Under the pieces are notes generated by a model. That model searched no databases. It saw only the letters and a program-made list of their open reading frames with translations, and had not been told where the DNA came from. The translations under genes and the position numbers were made by a program. DNA of 20,000 nt from an uncultured virus (IMG/VR IMGVR_UViG_3300023054_000005). Taxonomy: Duplodnaviria; Heunggongvirae; Uroviricota; Caudoviricetes. This document shows, piece after piece, positions 8,400 through 20,000 of this stretch (position 1 is its first letter; every line of letters begins with the position of its first letter). The stretch lies in the IMG/VR virus record IMGVR_UViG_3300023054_000005. One strand, 5' to 3'.

Positions 8400-9839
8400 A
8401 TGAATAAAAGTTTTAAACATCTTCCACAAAAAGAAAGGAAAAAAATACTCCTCTTATGTGATGACCTTAGAGTACATTCTGGTGTTGCAACTATTGCCAA
8501 AGAAATTGTAACTCATACATCACACCACTTTAATTGGGTGCAAATGGCAGGAGCCATTAATCATCCTGAAAAAGGGAAAAAATTAGACTTAAGTCAAAGT
8601 ACTAATACTTTAATGGAGATTGATGATTCTTCTCTATTTTTATACCCACAAGATGGATATGGCAACCCCGATACATTACGACAAATAATAGCATCAGAAA
8701 AACCTGATGCCATCATGTTAATTACAGATCCTAGATATTTTACTTGGATTTTCAATATGGAACATGAAATACGTCGTAAAATTCCTATTACCTATCTAAA
8801 CATTTGGGACGATTATCCTGCTCCAATGTACAACCAACCTTACTATGAGGCTTGTGATTTATTAATGGGAATATCAAAACAAACTGTAAACATTAATAAA
8901 ATTGTTTTAGGTGATAAGGGTAAAAATAAAATTTTTAAATACATACCCCATGGTCTAAATGAGGATGTATACAAACCTGTATCTAAAACAGACCAGGGTT
9001 TTGTTCAATTTAAAAAGATATTATTTGGTGGGTTTGATCCCAAATTTGTACTGTTTTTCAACTCAAGAAATATTAGAAGAAAACAAATCCCGGATGCAAT
9101 GTTAGCCTTTAGACATTTTTTAGATAGTTTACCTAAGGAAGAGGCTTTAAAATGTAGAATGGTACTACATACTGAATTGACATCAGACCACGGGACAGAT
9201 TTAGAAGTGGTTAAAGAATATTTTTTTGATGAAGAATATGAAGATACAATTGTATTTTCTACTCAAAAATACCACCAAACACAACTAAATTATTTATATA
9301 ATATAGCAGACGTACAGATATTACTTACTTCTAATGAGGGTTGGGGTTTAACTTTAACTGAAGCTATGTTATCTGGAACCCCCATAATAGCTAATGTTAC
9401 AGGAGGTATGCAAGATCAAATGAGATTTGTAGATTCAAACGGGGAATGGTTTACCCCTTCACCTGAAATCCCATCTAACCATAGAGGAACTTATAAAGAA
9501 CATGGAGAATGGGCATTTCCCGTTTACCCAACATCTAGATCTATCCAAGGTTCATCTCAAACACCTTATATTTTTGACGATAGATGTGAATGGGAAGACG
9601 CTTCTAAACAAATTAAAGCAATATATGATTTAGATCCTGAAGAACGTAAAGCAAGAGGATTAAAAGGCAGAGAATGGGCTTTAAGTGAAGAAGCAGGTTT
9701 TAATTCTAAGCATCAGGCTAATAGAGTTATGGGGGCGTTTGATGAATTATTTTCAACATGGGAACCCAGAGAAAAATATGAAATAATAAATGCCAACGAT
9801 TATAAAGGTAAATTTTTAAAACATAATATAATATACTAA
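8400..9839 (+). CDS. Glycosyltransferase, GT-B fold (GT4-like)
   Basis: SGVAT, IPHG, RNIRRK and NEGWGLTLTEAMLSGTPII (EX7E motif). Confidence 0.9.
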   Translation: MNKSFKHLPQKERKKILLLCDDLRVHSGVATIAKEIVTHTSHHFNWVQMAGAINHPEKGKKLDLSQSTNTLMEIDDSSLFLYPQDGYGNPDTLRQIIASEKPDAIMLITDPRYFTWIFNMEHEIRRKIPITYLNIWDDYPAPMYNQPYYEACDLLMGISKQTVNINKIVLGDKGKNKIFKYIPHGLNEDVYKPVSKTDQGFVQFKKILFGGFDPKFVLFFNSRNIRRKQIPDAMLAFRHFLDSLPKEEALKCRMVLHTELTSDHGTDLEVVKEYFFDEEYEDTIVFSTQKYHQTQLNYLYNIADVQILLTSNEGWGLTLTEAMLSGTPIIANVTGGMQDQMRFVDSNGEWFTPSPEIPSNHRGTYKEHGEWAFPVYPTSRSIQGSSQTPYIFDDRCEWEDASKQIKAIYDLDPEERKARGLKGREWALSEEAGFNSKHQANRVMGAFDELFSTWEPREKYEIINANDYKGKFLKHNIIY

Positions 9840-11110
9840 TGAGTAAACCAACATTTGTAATTTCCTCACCGATGGATACCTATAGTGGGTATGGTGCCCG
9901 ATCACGAGACATAATAAAAGCCATTATAGAAACAGATAAATATGATGTTAAATTAATGGCTCAAAGGTGGGGTTCTACTTCTTGGGGGTTTTGTGATGAC
10001 CATAAAGAATGGCAATTTTTACTTCAACACTTACTCCCTGAAAATCAATTGGTGTCACAACCCGAAATTTGGATGCAAATCACAATTCCAAATGAATTCC
10101 AACCTATAGGAAAATATAATATAGGTTGCACCGCAGGTATAGAAGCTACCATATGTAAGCATGAGTGGATAGAAGGGATGAATAAAATGGATATGAATTT
10201 GGTATCTTCTAATTTTTCTAAAAAGATATTACAAGAGGTATCGTATGCTAAAAAAGACCAAAAATCAAACCGAACATTAGGAGAAATCAAATTAAATAAA
10301 CATGTTGAAGTAGTATTTGAAGGTGCAAATCTAGACATCTATAAAACTTTAAAACCTACAGAAGTCACTAATATCAATTTAGATACAATCCCTGAAAAGT
10401 TTTGTTATTTGTTTGTAGGACATTGGATGCAAGGTAGTTTTGGGCATGATAGAAAAAATGTTTCGGTATTAGTAAAATCCTTTTATGAAACATTTAAAAA
10501 TAAAAAAAACACCCCCGCTTTAATATTAAAAACTTCTGTAGGAGTTGCTTCTTATATAAGCCGAGATGAAATTTTAAAACGTATAAAACAAATAAGAAAA
10601 ACGGTTAAATCCCATACTTTACCTAATATCTATGTTTTGAATGGGGAGTTTAATGACAGTGAAATGAATGAATTATATAACCACCCTAAGGTAAAATCTA
10701 TGGTAAGTTTTACTAAAGGTGAAGGATTTGGACGACCACTATTAGAATTCGGGTTATCAAACAAACCTATAATAGCCTCAGCATTTTCAGGTCAATTAGA
10801 TTTTTTACATCCAAGTTTTACATATTTAATTCCTGGAGTTTTGGAGAATGTCCATGATAGCGCCGCTAATGATTGGTTAATTAAAAAAGCAAAATGGTTT
10901 AAACCTGACAGTGGTCATATTGGTACATCGTTAAAGGATGTTTTTAATAATTACCAAAAATACAAAACTATGGGAATGCGTCAAGGGTCCCACGTACGTA
11001 ATAATTTTAGTTACGAGAAAATGAAAGAATTAGTTGAGAGTATTTTTGATAAAAATATTCCTGAATTTCCAAAACAAGTAGAATTAATATTACCCAAATT
11101 AAAAAAATAA
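9839..11110 (+). CDS. Glycosyltransferase, GT-B fold (GT4-like)
   Basis: SGYG, FLFVG-like YLFVG, DRKN and GEGFGRPLLEFGLSNKPII (EX7E motif). Confidence 0.9.
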   Translation: MSKPTFVISSPMDTYSGYGARSRDIIKAIIETDKYDVKLMAQRWGSTSWGFCDDHKEWQFLLQHLLPENQLVSQPEIWMQITIPNEFQPIGKYNIGCTAGIEATICKHEWIEGMNKMDMNLVSSNFSKKILQEVSYAKKDQKSNRTLGEIKLNKHVEVVFEGANLDIYKTLKPTEVTNINLDTIPEKFCYLFVGHWMQGSFGHDRKNVSVLVKSFYETFKNKKNTPALILKTSVGVASYISRDEILKRIKQIRKTVKSHTLPNIYVLNGEFNDSEMNELYNHPKVKSMVSFTKGEGFGRPLLEFGLSNKPIIASAFSGQLDFLHPSFTYLIPGVLENVHDSAANDWLIKKAKWFKPDSGHIGTSLKDVFNNYQKYKTMGMRQGSHVRNNFSYEKMKELVESIFDKNIPEFPKQVELILPKLKK

Positions 11111-13638: not shown

Positions 13639-14280
13639 ATGCCACAACCCAAACCTTTAAGTAAGACTCAAATTTTAGCAGCAATGGCTAAAACAAAATC
13701 TAATATGGCTAGCGCCCGCTACCTTCATGTTTCATATCAACATTATAAAAGACATGCTAAAAATTATGAAGCTACTAAGGAGGGTTATGAAAATCTATTT
13801 GACCAACATAAAAACCAAAGTGGAAAAGGCATACCTAAGTTTTTAAATAATGGTAAGAAAGATCCTGCGTTATTAGATATAATAGAAGGTAAGATATCTC
13901 CTTCACATTTTAATCCCTCTAAAATCAAATATCGTTTAATTGAAGAAGGATATCTGGAAGAAGAATGTTCAATATGCAAATTCAGTGAACGTAGAGTATT
14001 AGATTATAGAGTTCCACTTTTATTACACTTTAAAGATAAAAACGGGAATAACTATAACCAGAATAATATTGAATTACTATGTTATAACCATTACTTTTTA
14101 TATGTTGGGGATGTTTTTAACGCTATTGATGAAAAACAAATAGAATCCCACACACCTTTAAATAATACTACAGACGCTGTTAATTTTGAAATGGATGAAT
14201 ATCACTTACAACGTTTAAAGGAATTAGGATTGGGGGATGATGACGAAGATAGTACTAACCAATATATTAGTCGAATGTAA
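13639..14280 (+). CDS. HNH-like protein with N-terminal HTH-like region
   Basis: CSIC...LLLHFKDKNGNNYNQNNIELLCYNH resembles a degenerate HNH motif; SMASARYL-like helix (SNMASARYLHVSY) near the N-terminus. Confidence 0.6.
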   Translation: MPQPKPLSKTQILAAMAKTKSNMASARYLHVSYQHYKRHAKNYEATKEGYENLFDQHKNQSGKGIPKFLNNGKKDPALLDIIEGKISPSHFNPSKIKYRLIEEGYLEEECSICKFSERRVLDYRVPLLLHFKDKNGNNYNQNNIELLCYNHYFLYVGDVFNAIDEKQIESHTPLNNTTDAVNFEMDEYHLQRLKELGLGDDDEDSTNQYISRM

Positions 14281-15084: not shown

Positions 15085-15131
15085 TTTCATATATTCCTGT
15101 ACATTAATCAACTAAAACTGTATATGTTATG
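15085..15131 (+). promoter_or_regulatory. Promoter/leader module, copy 1
   Basis: tttcatatattcc...ttaatcaactaaaac...gttATG; similar to 15672-15718 with identical spacing. Confidence 0.55.
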
Positions 15132-15653: not shown

Positions 15654-15718
15654 TTGTATATGTAAATTTTACTTCGTATATTCCGGCATGTTAATCAATT
15701 AAAACAATAAAGGTTATG
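15654..15718 (+). promoter_or_regulatory. Promoter/leader module, copy 2 (TTG-N20-TATATT)
   Basis: ttg 15654-15656, then cttcgtatattcc...ttaatcaattaaaac...gttATG. Confidence 0.6.
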
Positions 15719-16303: not shown

Positions 16304-16723
16304 ATGAAGAACTTACTTTGGTTAGACGATATTAGAAACCCTTTTATAAATGAAGAAGGTAAAGTACCAACAGATGCGGATGGTGGAGATTATAATATAA
16401 ATTGGGTTTTGAATTATGAACAGTTTGTAAAATGGATTGGAATATTTGGGTTACCTGATGCTATTTCTTTCGACCACGATTTAGCGGATGAGCATTATAC
16501 ACCTGAATATTTTTGGGAAGATTATGATGAAAGTAAAAAATTTCAAGAATGGCGTGGTGAGAGTTACAAGGAAAAAACAGGAATGGATTGTGCCCAATGG
16601 TTAGTAGATTATTGCATGGACAACCAGAAAAAATTACCCAGGATATTTATACACTCCGCAAACCCCGTTGGTGCAGATAATATAAAAGGGTTGCTGGATA
16701 ACTTTATTAAATATTGTAGTTAA
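16304..16723 (+). CDS. Cyclic-phosphate-processing receiver-like domain protein
   Basis: LWLDDIRNP, ISFDHDL, TGMDCAQWL and IHSANPVG motifs. Confidence 0.75.
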   Translation: MKNLLWLDDIRNPFINEEGKVPTDADGGDYNINWVLNYEQFVKWIGIFGLPDAISFDHDLADEHYTPEYFWEDYDESKKFQEWRGESYKEKTGMDCAQWLVDYCMDNQKKLPRIFIHSANPVGADNIKGLLDNFIKYCS

Positions 16724-16740
16724 AGTACCTTTTAAGGAAT

Positions 16741-16874
16741 ATATAAAAAACGTAAACGATGATTTATAAAATAAAATATAAATTTAGATTATACTTATTA
16801 GAACGTAAATTAATAATAACTAAACAACGGAAAGCGATAAGTAGTTTATTTTCTTTGTGCGTTGTTGTGAAATT
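16741..16874. repeat. Degenerate attC-like element A
   Basis: Right arm gtttattttctttgtgc-gtt-GTTgtgaaatt; weak left arm atataaaaaacgtaaac with no AAC core. Confidence 0.4.
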
Positions 16875-16878
16875 TTAA
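16759..16878 (+). CDS. Micro-ORF reading through element A right arm
   Basis: 39 aa MIYKIK...SLFSLCVVVKF. Confidence 0.35.
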   Translation: MIYKIKYKFRLYLLERKLIITKQRKAISSLFSLCVVVKF

Positions 16879-16882
16879 ACAG

Positions 16883-17026
16883 ATGAAAGGATTTACAGGA
16901 TTTAAATGGTGGGAGCAAGAAAACCCAGCTTATAGGAAAGCTTGCAGAAGACAAGCCTCTAAAGAATTAATAGAATTAAAAGGACAATACGATTACTTTA
17001 TTAAAAAAACAGTAAGTAAGGTTTAA
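16883..17026 (+). CDS. Micro-ORF
   Basis: 47 aa MKGFTGFKWWEQENPAYRKAC...; stop abuts element B. Confidence 0.55.
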   Translation: MKGFTGFKWWEQENPAYRKACRRQASKELIELKGQYDYFIKKTVSKV

Positions 17027-17147
17027 TTTTTTACAAAGCATTGTGTATGCCTAGTAGCGTATAAATAGAAACAAATATTAATTAATAAATAAAACTTATA
17101 AAAATGACTAAAGAAACAAGAACTTTTATTTGGGGAATGACGCTACT
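17025..17147. repeat. Degenerate attC-like element B
   Basis: Left arm aattttttacAAAgcattgtgtatgcctagtagcgt (AAC changed to AAA); only acgctact (17140-17147) of the right arm remains complementary. Confidence 0.5.
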
Positions 17148-17292: not shown

Positions 17293-17427
17293 TTGCATAT
17301 AACTTATGCGTGTATAGTTTGTTAACTATGTGATTAATAAAAGTACACTATAAAAATAGATTTGGTAGATTGATGTTAATTTAGTAAATTTGTTAATAAA
17401 TTATACACGCTGTTGGTTGCAGTTATT
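17291..17427. repeat. attC-like element C
   Basis: AAC 17301; gcgtgtatagtttgttaac pairs with gttaataaattatacacgc (17/19, both mismatches G.T); GTT 17412. Confidence 0.85.
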
Positions 17428-17472
17428 TTATAAAACCCCATTAATTTTATTTAAAATTAAAATACATAATAT

Positions 17473-17601
17473 ATGAACACAAACGGAGATAAGTTTTTTA
17501 TTTTAACCAACCCTATATTTTGGGTGTATTTTTTAATTATGACCATCTACTACTTAATAGATATGCTAAATATTTTTGATAAAAAACAAAACCAGAACTA
17601 A
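17473..17601 (+). CDS. Micro-ORF, single TM
   Basis: 42 aa MNTNGDKFFILTNPIFWVYFLIMTIYYLIDML..., TAATG-coupled to ORF 17601. Confidence 0.55.
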   Translation: MNTNGDKFFILTNPIFWVYFLIMTIYYLIDMLNIFDKKQNQN

Positions 17602-17822
17602 TGATAAAATGTGATAAAGGATGGCATAGTGGTGAATGCTGTTGTAATTGTAAAAACCAAATTGAGTTATTTAAACATCCTTGGAATAAGATAAACCAAG
17701 GAGCTTCTAATGAAGCTACTAATATGTTTGCTTGTATAGTGGAACACGATTGTAATAAAACAAATAAAGGAGTTATATTTGAAAATAAACATGGTCTTTG
17801 TGAAATGCATTGCGGTAAATAA
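17601..17822 (+). CDS. Cys-rich small protein
   Basis: 73 aa with CCCNC...C...C...CEMHC. Confidence 0.65.
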   Translation: MIKCDKGWHSGECCCNCKNQIELFKHPWNKINQGASNEATNMFACIVEHDCNKTNKGVIFENKHGLCEMHCGK

Positions 17823-17879
17823 AATGAATAAAAAAATTAAAATTAAAAGCTATTTTAAATAAGTATATATTAAAAAAAA

Positions 17880-18089
17880 ATGATAAATAATCTAGTAGTA
17901 AAACACAATAATGATAATGAAAATTTTAGAATTTTTGTTAATCACGGTAGTTATACTTATTCAGCAGAATATAATTTAATTGATTTATTTGATAATAAAA
18001 AATACATATTTAATTGTCAATCCATAAAAGAATTGTCTGACAAAGAAATAAAAGAAAGAATAATTAGTTATCATTTAGACACGATATAG
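17880..18089 (+). CDS. Hypothetical protein
   Basis: 69 aa with A-rich leader, followed by a terminator. Confidence 0.55.
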   Translation: MINNLVVKHNNDNENFRIFVNHGSYTYSAEYNLIDLFDNKKYIFNCQSIKELSDKEIKERIISYHLDTI

Positions 18090-18112
18090 GCCGTAATATA
18101 TGTGGCCTTTTT
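18088..18112 (+). terminator. Rho-independent terminator
   Basis: aggccgta-atata-tgtggcct followed by tttt. Confidence 0.6.
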
Positions 18113-18114
18113 AC

Positions 18115-18263
18115 AATAATGACTGCCAACGTATTTGTGTATAAAATGTACGAGTAAAAATAAATAGAATTTAATATTAATAATTAAAATAAGTAAAGAT
18201 GAAAAAAGTAAATTTAAACAGAATTAGTAAGTATTTTTTATACACGTTGTTGGTTGTAGTCTT
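18115..18263. repeat. attC-like element D
   Basis: AAC 18128; gtgtataaaatgtac / gtattttttatacac (13/15); GTT 18249. Confidence 0.85.
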
Positions 18264-18498
18264 ATTTACGGGATGTGCCGATGTCTCTAATATAGAAGCG
18301 TGTACCACAGTTGCTCCTTATGGATTTTGGGGAGGACTTTGGCACGGAATGATTGCACCATTTGCATGGATAGGTAGTTTGTTTAGTAGCGATATAGCAA
18401 TATATGCTGTAAATAATAACGGAGGTTGGTATGACTTCGGATTTATATTAGGTATAGGCGCGTTAAGCAGTAGCTCTACAAGTGCAGCAAAAAGATAG
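18199..18498 (+). CDS. Putative lipoprotein / membrane protein
   Basis: Signal peptide with lipobox FTG-C; GFWGGLWHG...NNGGWYDFGF. Confidence 0.8.
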   Translation: MKKVNLNRISKYFLYTLLVVVLFTGCADVSNIEACTTVAPYGFWGGLWHGMIAPFAWIGSLFSSDIAIYAVNNNGGWYDFGFILGIGALSSSSTSAAKR

Positions 18499-18503
18499 TA
18501 AAT

Positions 18504-18651
18504 AATATTACTTACAACGTACCCTTTTATTGCATTTTGCGTAAATTAATAATTAGTAAATAAATATAACATAAATGATAGAATATAAACAATTTAGTAA
18601 AAAAGTAAATAAAAAGCAATTTGTTATAAAAGATGTTGGCATTTGTTTTTT
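18504..18651. repeat. attC-like element E
   Basis: AAC 18516; cttttattgcattttgc / gcaatttgttataaaag (13/17); GTT 18635. Confidence 0.75.
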
Positions 18652-18721
18652 TGATACTAAATTTACTTTTTTACTATTAATAGGCTTTTTATTATTAATA
18701 ATAATCTTTAATTATCTATAA
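18575..18721 (+). CDS. Micro-ORF with C-terminal TM
   Basis: 48 aa MIEYKQ...QFVIKDVGICFF...LLLIGFLLLIIIFNYL. Confidence 0.55.
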   Translation: MIEYKQFSKKVNKKQFVIKDVGICFFDTKFTFLLLIGFLLLIIIFNYL

Positions 18722-18723
18722 AT

Positions 18724-18883
18724 AAAAAATAACTACCAACGAATTGTATAAGGTACGTTGCGACCTTGAATTAAGCAACAAAACTAATTAATAGATAAAA
18801 AATGAGTTTGATTAGTAGGTTGTTTAGTAAAAAGAAAGTAAAGAAAAAATGCTTTATATACGGTGTTGTTGAATCGTTTTATT
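18724..18883. repeat. attC-like element F
   Basis: AAC 18738; tgtataaggta / tgctttatata (paired with G.T wobbles); GTT 18865. Confidence 0.7.
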
Positions 18884-18969
18884 GTTATGACCACAAGAAC
18901 CCACATTATGAAAGCACTTGCCAAAGACAATGCGAGGCTTGTAATTTAATGGATGGAACTAAACAATAA
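18802..18969 (+). CDS. Micro-ORF, Cys-rich
   Basis: 55 aa MSLISRLF...CFIYGVVESFYC...CQRQCEAC.... Confidence 0.6.
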   Translation: MSLISRLFSKKKVKKKCFIYGVVESFYCYDHKNPHYESTCQRQCEACNLMDGTKQ

Positions 18970-19112
18970 TATGGTTTACAACGCATTGTATAAGAAATGT
19001 TGCGTTTAATTATAGTGAAATTAATAAATAAAATCATAAATTATGTTTAAAGAATTAGATTATAAAAATGGAGAAAGTAGCAATTTTTTTTATACGTTGT
19101 TATTTGAAGTGC
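18965..19112. repeat. attC-like element G
   Basis: AAC 18980; gtataagaaatgttgc / gcaattttttttatac (13/16); GTT 19099. Confidence 0.8.
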
Positions 19113-19282
19113 GTGATAAGTACAGACAATTATTTATAAGCATTGACGCTGAAGAAGCACAAAAGAGAGGTTTTAGATTTGTAACAAACATTTACGGCGA
19201 TAGAATAAACCAATTAAATTGCAGAAGCCTATGGATAGACCATAAAAACCGAACGTGGCGAGTAGAGCAATTAAACATTTAG
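19043..19282 (+). CDS. Hypothetical protein
   Basis: 79 aa; starts inside element G. Confidence 0.7.
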   Translation: MFKELDYKNGESSNFFYTLLFEVRDKYRQLFISIDAEEAQKRGFRFVTNIYGDRINQLNCRSLWIDHKNRTWRVEQLNI

Positions 19283-19426
19283 CATTGCATATAACGTATT
19301 TGTGTATGTAGCGTTGCGAGTAGATAAACAATAATTTTTAATAAGTAATAAACTAAATAAAATGGATAAAAGTAAAGACCTAGAAACAGAACAGCAATGT
19401 GATATACACGTTGTTAGCATTAGTAT
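19282..19426. repeat. attC-like element H
   Basis: AAC 19293; gtgtatgtagcgttgc / gcaatgtgatatacac (12/16 plus 3 G.T); GTT 19413. Confidence 0.85.
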
Positions 19427-19562
19427 GGCTGATAAAGCACAAATGATAAATGCATTAATTAACACAATGGATATATGTAAAAACAAACTTGGGGGTTATC
19501 ATAGCATTAGGGATGGCGCACGTGAAAAACTGGAAGGATTAATTAAATCAATTGATATTTAA
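19362..19562 (+). CDS. Hypothetical protein
   Basis: 66 aa; starts inside element H. Confidence 0.7.
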   Translation: MDKSKDLETEQQCDIHVVSISMADKAQMINALINTMDICKNKLGGYHSIRDGAREKLEGLIKSIDI

Positions 19563-19834
19563 TATTACTGCTAACGGTTTATGTATGGGTAGTTTTTGCC
19601 CGATTTAATTAAAATAAAATAAATTATGAAAGAGATAGAACAATTATTTGGAGGTGCAAATGCTGAAGAGCAAAACATATTACTGCACATAATAAAAGAG
19701 CGAGGTTATGAGTTTTTTGAGAAAACACCTAAAACAACTATGACTATTCGTTTGCTTGAAGATTTGCACGAACTTGGTTATAAGATAGTGAAGCAAGGGC
19801 AATAATTACCTATACACGTTGTTGTGGTGTCGTT
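19562..19834. repeat. attC-like element I (enlarged loop)
   Basis: AAC 19573; gtatgggtagtttttgccc / gggcaataattacctatac (16/19); GTT 19821. Confidence 0.8.
19626..19805 (+). CDS. Hypothetical protein lying within element I; not in ORF track
   Basis: 59 aa MKEIEQLFGGANAEEQ...LHELGYKIVKQGQ. Confidence 0.7.
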   Translation: MKEIEQLFGGANAEEQNILLHIIKERGYEFFEKTPKTTMTIRLLEDLHELGYKIVKQGQ

Positions 19835-19836
19835 TT

Positions 19837-19980
19837 AATGCACTACAACTTATGCGTATAAACATTGTTACGGATAAATAAACTAAAACTTAATTATGAG
19901 ACCAGTAGATTTTAAAGATGAATTTTATTCTAGAAACCCATTAAGCAGTAATAATGATTTATACGTTGTTGTTACAAGTG
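19837..19980. repeat. attC-like element J
   Basis: AAC 19847; cgtataaacattgttac / gtaataatgatttatacg (one G.T, one bulged A); GTT 19968. Confidence 0.8.
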
Positions 19981-20000
19981 ATTTTTTGCAAACAGACCAA
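19896..20000 (+). CDS. Micro-ORF, 3'-truncated by window
   Basis: MRPVDFKDEFYSRNPLSSNNDLYVVVTSDFLQTDQ... open to the window end. Confidence 0.55.
   Translation, partial: MRPVDFKDEFYSRNPLSSNNDLYVVVTSDFLQTDQ

What the first reader, a model, noticed from the sequence alone, without database searches (positions are those of the whole stretch)
18128..20000. Genes start inside the putative recombination site and are translated through its right arm
Seen: ATGs at 18199, 18575, 18802, 19043, 19362, 19626 and 19896 lie 47-69 nt after the AAC, inside the A-rich loop. In six cases the ORF reads through the right arm, giving recurrent peptides in two frames: FLYTLLVV and FFYTLLFE in one, and CDIHVVSI, CFIYGVVE, FVIKDVGI and DLYVVVTS in the other. 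Established: classical cassettes have the ORF entirely upstream of attC. Inference: the site is inverted relative to the gene. With crossover at the left AA|C, each unit (loop with translation start, right arm, ORF body) would move as an intact gene. With crossover at the right G|TT, shuffling would swap N-termini and switch genes on or off by frame. Either reading is unusual dual coding.
Basis: partly seen in the sequence, partly recalled or inferred. Interest (0 to 1): 0.85.

Follow-up and report, generated by a model that had tools for sequence, protein, structure and literature searches.

The report
Phage gene cassettes with inverted integron-like sites
A large marine-type phage carries a row of small genes, each starting inside a folded recombination site that its bacterial hosts use, in the opposite orientation, to stack gene cassettes, so one short DNA stretch serves both as part of the site and as coding sequence.

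Summary
All seven ATGs lie 47-69 nt after the AAC. Six ORFs read through the right arm and give the quoted peptides.

The site is a real structured repeat: 12 copies, nine of them in the window. Inner stems covary within a site. The bases after GTT covary with the bases before the next site's AAC. Both tests gave 0 of 20000 permutations. This is the integron-cassette signature.

The same site family fills Flavobacteriaceae chromosomes. Its right-arm motif was found in 237 of 401 genomes. There it separates cassettes in arrays headed by a Xer/IntI-like tyrosine recombinase, an architecture like rAID-1. Host genes lie antisense to the AAC..GTT orientation in 49 of 53 segments. Phage genes lie sense in 17 of 19.

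One cassette recurs in three other phage contexts with homology running from AAC to the next AAC. There the leader travels with the gene body. Another comparison and metagenome variants also show exchange at the right arm.

No recombinase was found in the phage contig, and no classical IntI in 401 host-family genomes. The acting enzyme is therefore inferred, not shown. I rate this a new variant of a known kind.

The parts
16847..16875 (+). Right arm of a degenerate, hybrid first unit (core GTT at 16864). The gene ATG at 16883 follows the arm. The left partner around 16722 reads AAA instead of AAC.
   Evidence: PWM 18.7 bits
17294..17420 (+). Unit A: AAC at 17301, GTT at 17412, 9-bp inner stem (GCGTGTATA / TATACACGC). 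No ORF reads through the arm. The next gene starts at 17473.
   Evidence: (MFE closes left and right arms, z -6.8)
18121..18258 (+). Unit B: AAC at 18128, A-rich loop with ATG at 18199, GTT at 18249.
18199..18498 (+). 99-aa lipoprotein gene. The right arm encodes the hydrophobic core of its signal peptide, just before the LFTGC lipobox.
   Evidence: phrog_30702, E 9e-39, residues 5-97. Homologues with the same N-terminus appear in phi17:2 and L024, in 53 viral loci, and in 200 confirmed bacterial stretches, of which 80 loci were kept.
18509..18645 (+). Unit c: AAC at 18516, ATG at 18575, GTT at 18635. It has a variant inner stem, CTTTTAT / ATAAAAG.
18575..18721 (+). 48-aa ORF that starts in the loop. 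It has no internal Met.
   Evidence: no family hit
18731..18875 (+). Unit C: AAC at 18738, ATG at 18802, GTT at 18865.
18802..18969 (+). 55-aa Cys-rich ORF that starts in the loop.
18973..19110 (+). Unit D: AAC at 18980, ATG at 19043, GTT at 19099.
18980..19295 (+). One whole cassette, from AAC to the next AAC, carrying the 79-aa gene at 19043-19282. It is found in three other phage contexts.
   Evidence: (alignment A1). The ORF has no internal Met. phrog_35589 matches only residues 31-77.
19286..19424 (+). Unit E: AAC at 19293, ATG at 19362, GTT at 19413. In L022 this leader module is fused in frame to a different gene body.
   Evidence: (alignment A3)
19362..19562 (+). 66-aa ORF that starts in the loop. 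An in-frame Met at codon 22 lies just after the arm, so a downstream start cannot be excluded here.
19566..19830 (+). Unit F: AAC at 19573, GTT at 19821. The whole 59-aa ORF (19626-19805) lies inside the loop.
19821..19849 (+). Empty gene body: a hairpin formed by the right-arm outer flank and the next left-arm outer flank around the filler CGTTTTAATG.
   Evidence: the same filler occurs in L010, L012, L019 and L021
19840..20000 (+). Unit G: AAC at 19847, ATG at 19896, GTT at 19968. Its 39-aa ORF runs to 20015, beyond the window end.

Best explanation
The repeat is an attC-like, single-strand-foldable recombination site. Its order is Y-AAC-(G), a 4-6 nt gap, the inner stem, a GTTGCG box, an A-rich loop, an AGCAAT box, the complementary inner stem, a 1-3 nt gap, then (T)-GTT-R. 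AAC to GTT usually spans 111-127 nt.

It belongs to the repeat family that separates gene cassettes in chromosomal arrays of Flavobacteriaceae. Each array examined had a co-oriented Xer/IntI-like tyrosine recombinase upstream of it, the architecture described as rAID-1 in Bacteroidales. In the bacteria the genes lie on the other strand, with the site behind the gene as in integrons. In this T4-like phage, and in other Flavobacteriaceae phages, the site is turned round. A cassette runs from one AAC to the next AAC and begins with the site.

The A-rich terminal loop holds the translation start, and the ribosome reads through the right arm. The arm then codes either for residues 13-25 of the protein (six units in the window) or for a short leader ORF that stops 1-4 nt before the main start codon (two units beyond the window).

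Shown here:
- the fold and its covariation
- the partner switch at AAC/GTT
- homology with the host arrays
- the reversed gene orientation
- one cassette in several phage contexts with borders at the AAC
- coding constraint on the arm in at least two genes
- better folding of the AAC..GTT strand in both host and phage

Inferred:
- A host array recombinase cuts the folded AAC..GTT strand at the left AAC and moves whole cassettes between phage genomes.
- The loop is the working translation initiation region.
- Exchange at the right arm, which swaps leaders, happens either through the complementary strand or by homologous recombination within the conserved arm.
For: Structure
- The MFE fold closes the left and right arms in 11 of 11 units.
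- Five compact sites from 4 contigs give a consensus of 18 pairs, 5 of them compensatory.

Covariation
- Inner stems pair with the site's own partner: sum 216 against 126 +/- 12 in permutations, 0 of 20000 reached it, and the own partner scores best in 9 of 11 rows.
- The 12 nt after GTT pair with the 12 nt before the next AAC: 97 against 57.6 +/- 5.8, 0 of 20000, best in 10 of 12 rows. The site's own left arm scores at chance, 49.

Host family
- The motif GCAAT-N6-TRYACGNTGTTR occurs in 237 of 401 Flavobacteriaceae genomes, with 3 hits for the reversed control.
- Host and phage sites align colinearly with 34 invariant columns.
- In the host array, right-arm outer flanks match the next left arm perfectly in 5 of 5 consecutive pairs.
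- A tyrosine recombinase (PF00589 + PF13495) lies upstream of the motif arrays in 7 of 7 genomes examined: directly at the array's 5' end in L184 and L185, and 1.4-20 kb from the listed motif hits in the other five.

Orientation
- Host genes are antisense in 49 of 53 segments; phage genes are sense in 17 of 19.

Folding strand
- The AAC..GTT strand is the more stable in 28 of 30 host sites (control 9 of 30) and in 10 of 11 phage sites (control 36 of 59).

Mobility
- Cassette D has AAC-to-AAC homology in L019/L020 and L021 with unrelated flanks, a compensatory GTTA..TAAC to GTTG..CAAC change, and synonymous changes in the arm codons.
- Among the loose ends listed for metagenome contigs, 7 of 19 distinct places lie within 3 nt of a core, against about 0.5 expected.

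Coding
- The lipoprotein signal peptide spans the arm.
- Four of the six fused ORFs (48, 79, 39 and 99 aa) have no internal Met, and the 55-aa ORF has one only near its C-terminus.
Against: - No tyrosine recombinase or Y1 transposase was found in the phage contig, which is 85% complete: six-frame PF00589 and PF01797 searches and a Pfam scan of 129 ORFs.
- The phage's host is unknown, so I could not check that it carries such an array.
- Some break points do not fit a single left crossover. In L022 the body is swapped after the GTT. Contigs diverge after the GTT of two right arms. One deletion joint lies in the A-rich loops with 5-nt microhomology.
- In Nekkels_1 the 5' border of homology lies in the loop, not at the AAC.
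- The extra unpaired bases sit on the arm that carries the inferred crossover. As I recall, this is the opposite of classical attC bottom strands.
- The ORF-through-arm excess over shuffled loops is modest (49 of 2000).
- No recombination or translation has been observed directly.
Confidence: 0.68

Rival explanations
1. It is a PeSL-like regulatory cassette of a T4-type phage. In this reading the element is mainly an expression signal: promoter or terminator, translation start, and an mRNA stem. Shuffling comes from the phage's own homologous recombination between the conserved arms and A-rich loops, and no site-specific recombinase acts on the phage DNA.
For: - The phage is T4-like: Portal_T4, gp32, a UvsX-like RecA and SegE-type endonucleases, with no integrase.
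- The array sits among small unknown genes, as PeSLs do (PMC2839356, passages read; PMC4122927, abstract read).
- One metagenome contig joins loop c to loop D at a 5-nt microhomology.
- The folding strand is the mRNA strand in the phage and has many G.T pairs, 43 of 278.
- Leader ORFs that end at the main start codon suggest translational coupling.
- Apparent break points at the cores would also arise from crossovers anywhere inside a conserved arm.
Against: - The same site stands antisense to the genes in host arrays, so there it cannot act as an mRNA element. It still folds better on the AAC..GTT strand, in 28 of 30 sites.
- It is tied to a tyrosine recombinase in 7 of 7 host genomes examined.
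- Homologous recombination does not explain why the flank after GTT is complementary to the flank before the next AAC.
- The conserved core at the cassette D borders is too short for homology-driven exchange.
- No consistent promoter motif was seen by eye, and no formal promoter scan was run.
Confidence: 0.15
2. The left and right arms are double-stranded Xer/dif-like sites in alternating inverted orientation, as in the pdif modules of Acinetobacter plasmids (recalled from memory). Loops and gene bodies would then be equivalent modules exchanged at either core.
For: - The associated recombinases score about as well on Xer models as on the integron model, and the nearest solved structures are XerC-like and XerA.
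- Break points occur at both left and right cores.
- The same filler, CGTTTTAATG, occupies both empty loops and empty bodies.
Against: - The left and right arms are not inverted copies of one site. The left has AAC-G and a 4-6 nt gap; the right has T-GTT and a 1-3 nt gap, in every unit.
- The inner arms vary freely in sequence but keep their pairing. This fits recognition of a fold, not of half-sites.
- All cassette genes keep one orientation, although inverted sites should invert segments.
Confidence: 0.1
3. The ORFs are not translated from the loop. Real starts would lie after the GTT, or the small ORFs are not genes, and the apparent dual coding reflects only that the arm lacks stop codons.
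For: - The arm is open in all three frames.
- Shuffled loops already give a read-through ORF in 4.5 of 11 units.
- Unit E has an in-frame Met just after the arm.
- In five of 12 units the main gene does start after the arm.
- Three of the six fused ORFs matched no PHROGs family and were not searched further.
Against: - The lipoprotein needs the upstream start for its signal peptide, and homologues share that N-terminus.
- The 79-aa ORF has no other Met. Its leader is kept in four other loci (L018-L021, three distinct contexts), with synonymous changes inside the arm.
- In L022 the E leader is the only start for a 74-aa ORF.
Confidence: 0.07

Closest known systems
rAID-1, recombinase-associated acquired interbacterial defence clusters of Bacteroidales (Ross et al. 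2019; preprint 10.1101/471110, passages read; PMC12247911, passages read)
   Same: A XerD-family tyrosine recombinase sits at the 5' end. It is followed by co-oriented short genes of low GC content with repeated intergenic motifs 'reminiscent of integrons'. The Flavobacteriaceae arrays found here have this architecture.
   Different: - rAID-1 is described only for Bacteroidales chromosomes, and those papers give no fold or crossover point for the repeat.
- Here the site is in a lytic-type T4-like phage without the recombinase, and it is inverted relative to the genes.
- Identity of the Flavobacteriaceae recombinases to the B. fragilis one was not tested.
- Immunity-gene content of the phage cassettes was not seen.
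Integron attC sites and cassette arrays; CALINs in phage genomes (Qi et al. 2023, PMC9892861: abstract, section 3.4, passages and Supplementary Data Sheet 1 rows read)
   Same: - AAC/GTT cores, an imperfect inverted repeat with an unpaired spacer and a variable loop, and a size mostly within the attC range.
- The flank after GTT belongs to the next cassette.
- One strand folds better than the other.
- The array lacks an integrase.
- Polaribacter phage P12002L, one of that paper's CALIN phages, holds sites of this family in the same region.
   Different: - No IntI was found: 0 of 401 host-family genomes over the TIGR02249 cut-off.
- The genes are on the folding strand and start inside the site.
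- The extra unpaired bases are on the crossover arm.
- The paper's P12002L_attC1, which by its primer sequence looks like a compact member of this family, was the one of six sites that gave no verified IntI1 recombinants.
PeSLs, promoter-early stem-loop cassettes of T4-type phages (PMC2839356, passages read; PMC4122927, abstract read)
   Same: Short conserved elements flank small unknown genes in the plastic regions of T4-like genomes. They carry the expression signals of the next gene, mark the borders of insertions and deletions, and can exchange in the AT-rich part in front of the ATG.
   Different: - A PeSL is a local stem-loop plus a sigma-70-type promoter and acts by homologous recombination.
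- Here the stem spans the translation start, shows cassette-type partner switching, and is shared with host arrays that have a dedicated recombinase.
Short ORFs in attI that drive translation of cassettes lacking their own start region (ORF-11 of class 1 integrons; recalled, not looked up)
   Same: A short ORF inside a recombination site is translated, and it hands ribosomes to the cassette gene behind it.
   Different: Here the start lies in every attC-like site rather than in attI, and in most units it is fused to the gene.

Membership tests
Classical integron attC site | Inverse core ..AAC at the 5' end and core GTT.. at the 3' end | tested here: met
   GTT is present in 12 of 12 right arms and AAC in 12 of 13 left arms, with one AAA. 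The flanks fit RYYY/RRRY only in part.
Classical integron attC site | Imperfect inverted repeat with an unpaired central spacer and a variable terminal structure, folding as a hairpin | tested here: met
   The MFE fold closes the arms in 11 of 11 units. Inner-stem covariation: 0 of 20000 permutations reached the observed score. Compact sites gave 18 pairs, 5 compensatory.
Classical integron attC site | Bases after GTT belong to the next cassette and pair with that cassette's own inverse core | tested here: met
   Next-site complementarity scored 97 against 57.6 +/- 5.8, 0 of 20000. The site's own left arm scored at chance. Host arrays matched perfectly in 5 of 5 pairs.
Classical integron attC site | ORF lies upstream of the site, on the strand opposite the folding strand | tested here: not met
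   Phage genes are sense to the folding strand in 17 of 19 segments and start inside the site. Host arrays do meet this feature, in 49 of 53 segments.
Classical integron attC site | Partner integron integrase (IntI) | tested here: not met
   There is no PF00589 match in the phage contig. TIGR02249 was over its cut-off in 0 of 401 Flavobacteriaceae genomes. The array recombinases score 173-200 bits against a cut-off of 265.
Classical integron attC site | Detected by IntegronFinder or HattCI, and recombined by IntI | not testable with these tools
   Neither program is available here. Published assays on P12002L sites gave one positive and one negative result (PMC9892861, section 3.4).
rAID-1-like recombinase-associated array | XerD-like tyrosine recombinase at the 5' end, co-oriented with the array | tested here: not met
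   The phage has none. The host arrays that use the same site have one upstream in 7 of 7 genomes examined: adjacent in L184 and L185, and 1.4-20 kb from the listed motif hits in the other five. The phage array is therefore a recombinase-less relative.
rAID-1-like recombinase-associated array | Two or more co-oriented short genes with a repeated intergenic motif | tested here: met
   12 sites lie on one strand between small genes.
rAID-1-like recombinase-associated array | Recombinase more than 44% identical to the B. fragilis rAID-1 recombinase; cassettes encode immunity proteins | not tested
   No reference sequence was at hand. The host cassettes hit NADase_transloc, DUF4240 and DUF2695. 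Only two of the phage array's cassette ORFs matched a PHROGs family, both of unknown function.
PeSL of T4-type phages | Local stem-loop terminator next to a sigma-70-type early promoter | tested here: not met
   The stem is long-range, enclosing 60-240 nt that include the start codon. No promoter consensus was seen by eye, and no promoter scan was run.
PeSL of T4-type phages | Flanks small unknown genes in the plastic regions of a T4-like genome and marks indel borders | tested here: met
   The genome is T4-like. Relatives and metagenome variants differ at the sites.

The most novel reading that the evidence does not exclude
Flavobacteriaceae phages run their own cassette system on the host's array recombinase, and both ends of the site act as exchange points. 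On this reading the site's loop module (start region plus 13-25 leader codons, or a whole mini-gene) and the gene bodies are shuffled independently. New bodies are switched on or off by reading frame, and cassettes pass between unrelated phage families and perhaps to and from host arrays. One DNA strand would then serve as recombination hairpin, mRNA 5' structure and coding sequence at once.
Probability: 0.3. Interest if true: 0.9.

Novelty: new variant of a known kind. Interest (0 to 1): 0.78.

Why it matters
Three consequences would follow if this holds.

1. It links two things so far described apart: integron-like 'CALIN' sites noticed in a few phages, and the recombinase-associated cassette arrays of Bacteroidota. 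It suggests these arrays extend to more than half of the sampled Flavobacteriaceae.

2. It gives the repeat of those arrays a concrete fold, a folding strand and a likely crossover point. All three can be tested directly with cultivable phage-host pairs such as Cellulophaga phage Nekkels_1 and Polaribacter phage P12002L.

3. It shows a compact solution to a general problem of cassette systems, namely how a promoter-less, start-less insert gets expressed. Here the recombination site itself carries the translation start, and its arm is read as protein. This is a clear case of overlapping structural and coding constraints, and a route by which lytic phages could trade small genes.

Tried and rejected
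- nhmmer profiles of the arms failed: the first run gave no output, and the second showed an option clash. I replaced them with a PWM scan.
- A generic AAC..GTT stem finder gave 230 and 270 hits on the two strands of the genome. It was too unspecific and I dropped it.
- The search of earlier findings returned nothing for this genome.
- No RNA run holds the stretch, so expression could not be examined.
- Most metagenome joints have sides of only 22 nt on a repeated arm, so I did not use them.
- A Bacteroidetes-type promoter (TAnnTTTG, recalled) and a T4 late-promoter-like TATAAATA were looked for by eye in the left arms. Neither was found consistently.
- A resemblance of one left arm to the E. 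coli dif site (recalled) did not hold in register.
- Y1 transposase (PF01797) and classical IntI were searched for and not found.
- The lipoprotein gene is not usually linked to the site elsewhere. The 12-mer occurs in 3 of 80 bacterial loci and in 5 viral loci holding that gene.
- I did not search IMG/VR with arm patterns, because a 14-mer was expected to give hundreds of chance hits.
Full report
**What is in the window.** The window is the minus strand of positions 63273-83272 of a 138,667-bp viral contig that is 85% complete. PHROGs and Pfam scans show a T4-like myovirus: T4-type portal and terminase, gp32, a RecA/UvsX-like protein, DnaB-like helicase, primase, clamp loader, split family-B polymerase, GroEL/GroES, ribonucleotide reductase with inteins, and several GIY-YIG and HNH endonucleases. 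Of 155 ORFs called, 152 lie on one strand. The nearest cultured relatives of single genes are Cellulophaga phages.

The right-arm motif TAYACGNTGTTG, with up to one mismatch, occurs 9 times in the window against 0.37 expected, and 0 of 200 shuffles reached 9. Seven of these lie at 17404-19971 on the + strand. The five exact copies in the whole genome all lie in this array. It holds 12 right arms from 16856 to 21055 in window-frame coordinates. Each scores 15.7-22.3 bits on a PWM, and the best score elsewhere on that strand is 14.9.

Six of the ORFs read through the right arm and give exactly the peptides quoted. The seventh ORF (19626-19805) lies wholly inside a 248-nt site. Over the 11 complete units, 8 have an ORF that starts in the loop and passes the GTT. 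Shuffled loops give 4.5 +/- 1.5, and 49 of 2000 shuffles reach 8.

**The site is a fold with a cassette signature.** With RNA parameters, the minimum-energy fold of the gene-sense strand closes the left arm on the right arm in 11 of 11 units. It has three helices:
- AAC:GTT with the outer flanks
- an inner stem, set off by a 4-6 nt gap on the left and a 1-3 nt gap on the right
- a GTTGC(G) box pairing with an AGCAAT box

The A-rich loop of about 55-70 nt holds the ATG.

The inner stems come in several mutually exclusive versions (GTGTATA/TATACAC, CGTACAA/TTGTACG, CTTTTA/TAAAAG), and each pairs with its own partner. The local-alignment score sum is 216, against 126 +/- 12 for permuted partners (0 of 20000), and the own partner is best in 9 of 11 rows. 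The previous right arm scores at chance.

The 12 bases after GTT are complementary to the 12 bases before the AAC of the next site, not of the site's own left arm. The score is 97 against 57.6 +/- 5.8 (0 of 20000), the next site is the row maximum in 10 of 12 rows, and the own left arm scores 49. This switch of partner at an invariant triplet is the hallmark of integron cassettes. It fits a crossover at either core.

**Relatives.** Contigs that share the flanking 139-aa gene at 68-87% identity carry their own sites with other cores and inner stems. These include:
- compact gene-less hairpins of about 50-100 nt
- sites whose next gene starts after the right arm
- sites with an ATG in the loop
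- sites that enclose a whole small ORF

Five compact sites from four contigs give a consensus fold of 18 pairs, 5 of them with compensatory changes.

**Where the borders lie.** The 79-aa gene at 19043-19282 was found in four further loci. In L019/L020 and L021, homology with the window begins at the AAC of the left arm and ends at the AAC(G) of the next left arm. The flanks on both sides are unrelated. In Nekkels_1 (L018), homology starts 24 nt before the ATG and ends at the next AAC. Loop, start codon, leader, right arm and body therefore travel together.

Between the window and L019, the base pair next to the core changed on both sides (GTTA..TAAC to GTTG..CAAC). Two changes inside the arm are synonymous, ACG to ACA and TTA to TTG.

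Other comparisons point the other way.
- In L022 the left arm, loop, ATG, leader and right arm of unit E are 80% identical to the window up to GTTAGCA. After that point an unrelated body follows in frame.
- In the same contig the right arm of unit D is the C-terminal end of a 75-aa ORF that sits in the loop.

Contigs of four salt-lake metagenome runs laid on the array are broken up. Of the 19 distinct loose-end places listed (47 more rows were not shown), 7 lie within 3 nt of a core, against about 0.5 expected. These are the AAC of units B, D, G and I (the last at two places) and the GTT of units A and I. One joint links the A-rich loops of units c and D at a 5-nt microhomology. So exchange occurs at the left core, at the right core and, at least once, in the loop. 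Break points at the edge of a conserved arm could also come from homologous recombination inside the arm.

**The turn: the site belongs to the hosts.** The phage contig has no tyrosine recombinase and no Y1 transposase. A 23-nt pattern covering the AGCAAT box and the right arm was then searched in 401 sampled Flavobacteriaceae genomes. It was found in 237 of them, with up to about 60 copies each and 3 hits in all for the reversed control. The copies often stand in rows 600-1000 bp apart on one strand.

Five such rows were fetched. The host site is about 130 nt and aligns colinearly with the phage sites. The invariant stretches are AACG, TTGT.TA, GT.GCG, AGCAAT and TATACACG.TGTT, 34 invariant columns among 8 sequences. 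In the one host array whose sites were printed (L184), the outer flank of each right arm is perfectly complementary to the outer flank of the next left arm in 5 of 5 consecutive pairs, and two inner-stem versions covary.

In two rows a 368-aa and a 394-aa tyrosine recombinase (PF00589 with PF13495) stand at the 5' end, between housekeeping genes and the cassettes. In five further genomes a homologue lies upstream of a row, 1.4 to about 20 kb from the listed motif hits. One of these copies carries an in-frame stop. That makes 7 of 7 genomes examined.

These recombinases score 173-200 bits on the integron-integrase model, below its cut-off of 265, and about as well on Xer models. The nearest solved structures are XerC-like, XerA and IntI4. 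No genome of the 401 has a match over the integron-integrase cut-off.

This architecture is the one described for rAID-1 in Bacteroidales: a XerD-family recombinase, co-oriented short low-GC genes, and repeated intergenic sequences 'reminiscent of integrons' (10.1101/471110 and PMC12247911, passages read).

**Orientation.** In the host rows the longest ORF between two sites lies antisense to the AAC..GTT orientation in 49 of 53 segments. Its start codon follows the site closely, as in integrons. In the phage arrays (this phage, L009, L010, L012, L022 and P12002L) it lies sense in 17 of 19 segments.

The AAC..GTT strand folds more stably than its complement in 28 of 30 host sites (gene-interior controls: 9 of 30) and in 10 of 11 phage sites (controls: 36 of 59). 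A G facing a T next to the core is conserved. The fold is thus kept on one DNA strand whichever way the genes run. This argues for a single-stranded DNA substrate, like the attC bottom strand. It argues against an element that works only in mRNA. By the integron analogy, the crossover on that strand is at the 5' AAC, which agrees with the borders of cassette D.

**Are the genes real, and do they start in the loop?**
- The 99-aa ORF is a lipoprotein of a family widespread in Bacteroidota. The right arm encodes the hydrophobic core of its signal peptide, and homologues without the site have the same N-terminus.
- The 79-aa ORF has no other Met, and its leader is conserved in all four further loci.
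- Of the other four fused ORFs, two have no internal Met and one has a Met only near its end. Unit E has an in-frame Met just after the arm.
- Beyond the window, two units carry 29-aa and 19-aa leader ORFs. These start in the loop, read through the arm and stop 1-4 nt before the main ATG. P12002L has a 32-aa one.

The loop therefore looks like a portable translation start, used by fusion or by coupling. That it works as one is inferred, not shown.

**Literature.** Qi et al. 2023 reported clusters of attC sites without an integrase in 17 phages, among them the virulent Polaribacter phage P12002L (PMC9892861). A phage site from the window finds that phage, and only that phage, in the phage collection: 68% identity over 128 nt, E 0.1. 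Its methyltransferase region holds several sites of this family in the gene-sense orientation.

From the primers in that paper's supplement, their attC1 looks like a compact member of the family with the CGTTTTAATG loop. It was the one of six sites that gave no verified IntI1 recombinants. Their attC2, which did recombine, overlaps a left arm but was called on the other strand.

PeSLs of T4-type phages are the closest phage analogue in role. My searches found no paper that connects phage sites with the Bacteroidota arrays, or that reports genes starting inside such a site. This holds only for the library searched.

**Verdict.**
- The system is not a classical integron but a Xer/IntI-like cassette system of Bacteroidota.
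- The phage lacks the enzyme, so activity must come from the host or is historical.
- Exchange is seen at both ends of the site.

What remains inferred is the acting enzyme, the strand and point of cleavage, and translation from the loop.

Noticed in passing
window 15086-15131, 15673-15718, and 21478-21525 in window-frame coordinates (beyond the window end): A 46-nt direct repeat ends in the ATG of three genes outside or at the edge of the array. It looks like a phage promoter plus start region of another kind.
   Followed up: no
window 19831-19840; L010 9636, 10653, 10688; L012 9365; L019 2172; L021 2717: The 10-nt filler CGTTTTAATG recurs as the loop both of empty gene bodies and of compact gene-less sites in five different phage contigs. 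It also appears in a published P12002L primer. It may be the ground state of an empty slot.
   Followed up: partly
L022 1540-1705: A 165-nt cassette body has no ORF and is GC-richer than its surroundings. It is possibly a small structured RNA carried as a cassette.
   Followed up: no
G000 genome, loci L080 and L081: The phage encodes QueC, GTP cyclohydrolase I, a PTPS/QueD-like protein and a radical-SAM protein. This gene set suggests 7-deazaguanine modification of its DNA. Two glycosyltransferases lie in the window at 8400-11110.
   Followed up: no
window 10886, 11543, 18657: The window differs from the genome record laid in the script box at three single bases.
   Followed up: no
Flavobacteriaceae genomes G315, G129, G211, G118, G068: Some genomes hold 45-62 copies of the right-arm pattern, which implies very large cassette arrays or several arrays per genome. 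In G253 the recombinase copy beside one array has an in-frame stop.
   Followed up: partly
window 13639-14280 and G000 loci L077, L080, L081: The genome carries many homing-type endonucleases (HNH, SegE-like GIY-YIG, T5orf172), inteins in ribonucleotide reductase, and a Hint domain in the terminase. The family-B DNA polymerase is split.
   Followed up: no
window 16696-17080: One metagenome contig (run X17, depth 45) skips 385 nt, from inside the 3' end of the conserved 139-aa gene to just before the ATG at 17104. This removes the degenerate first unit and its 47-aa gene.
   Followed up: no
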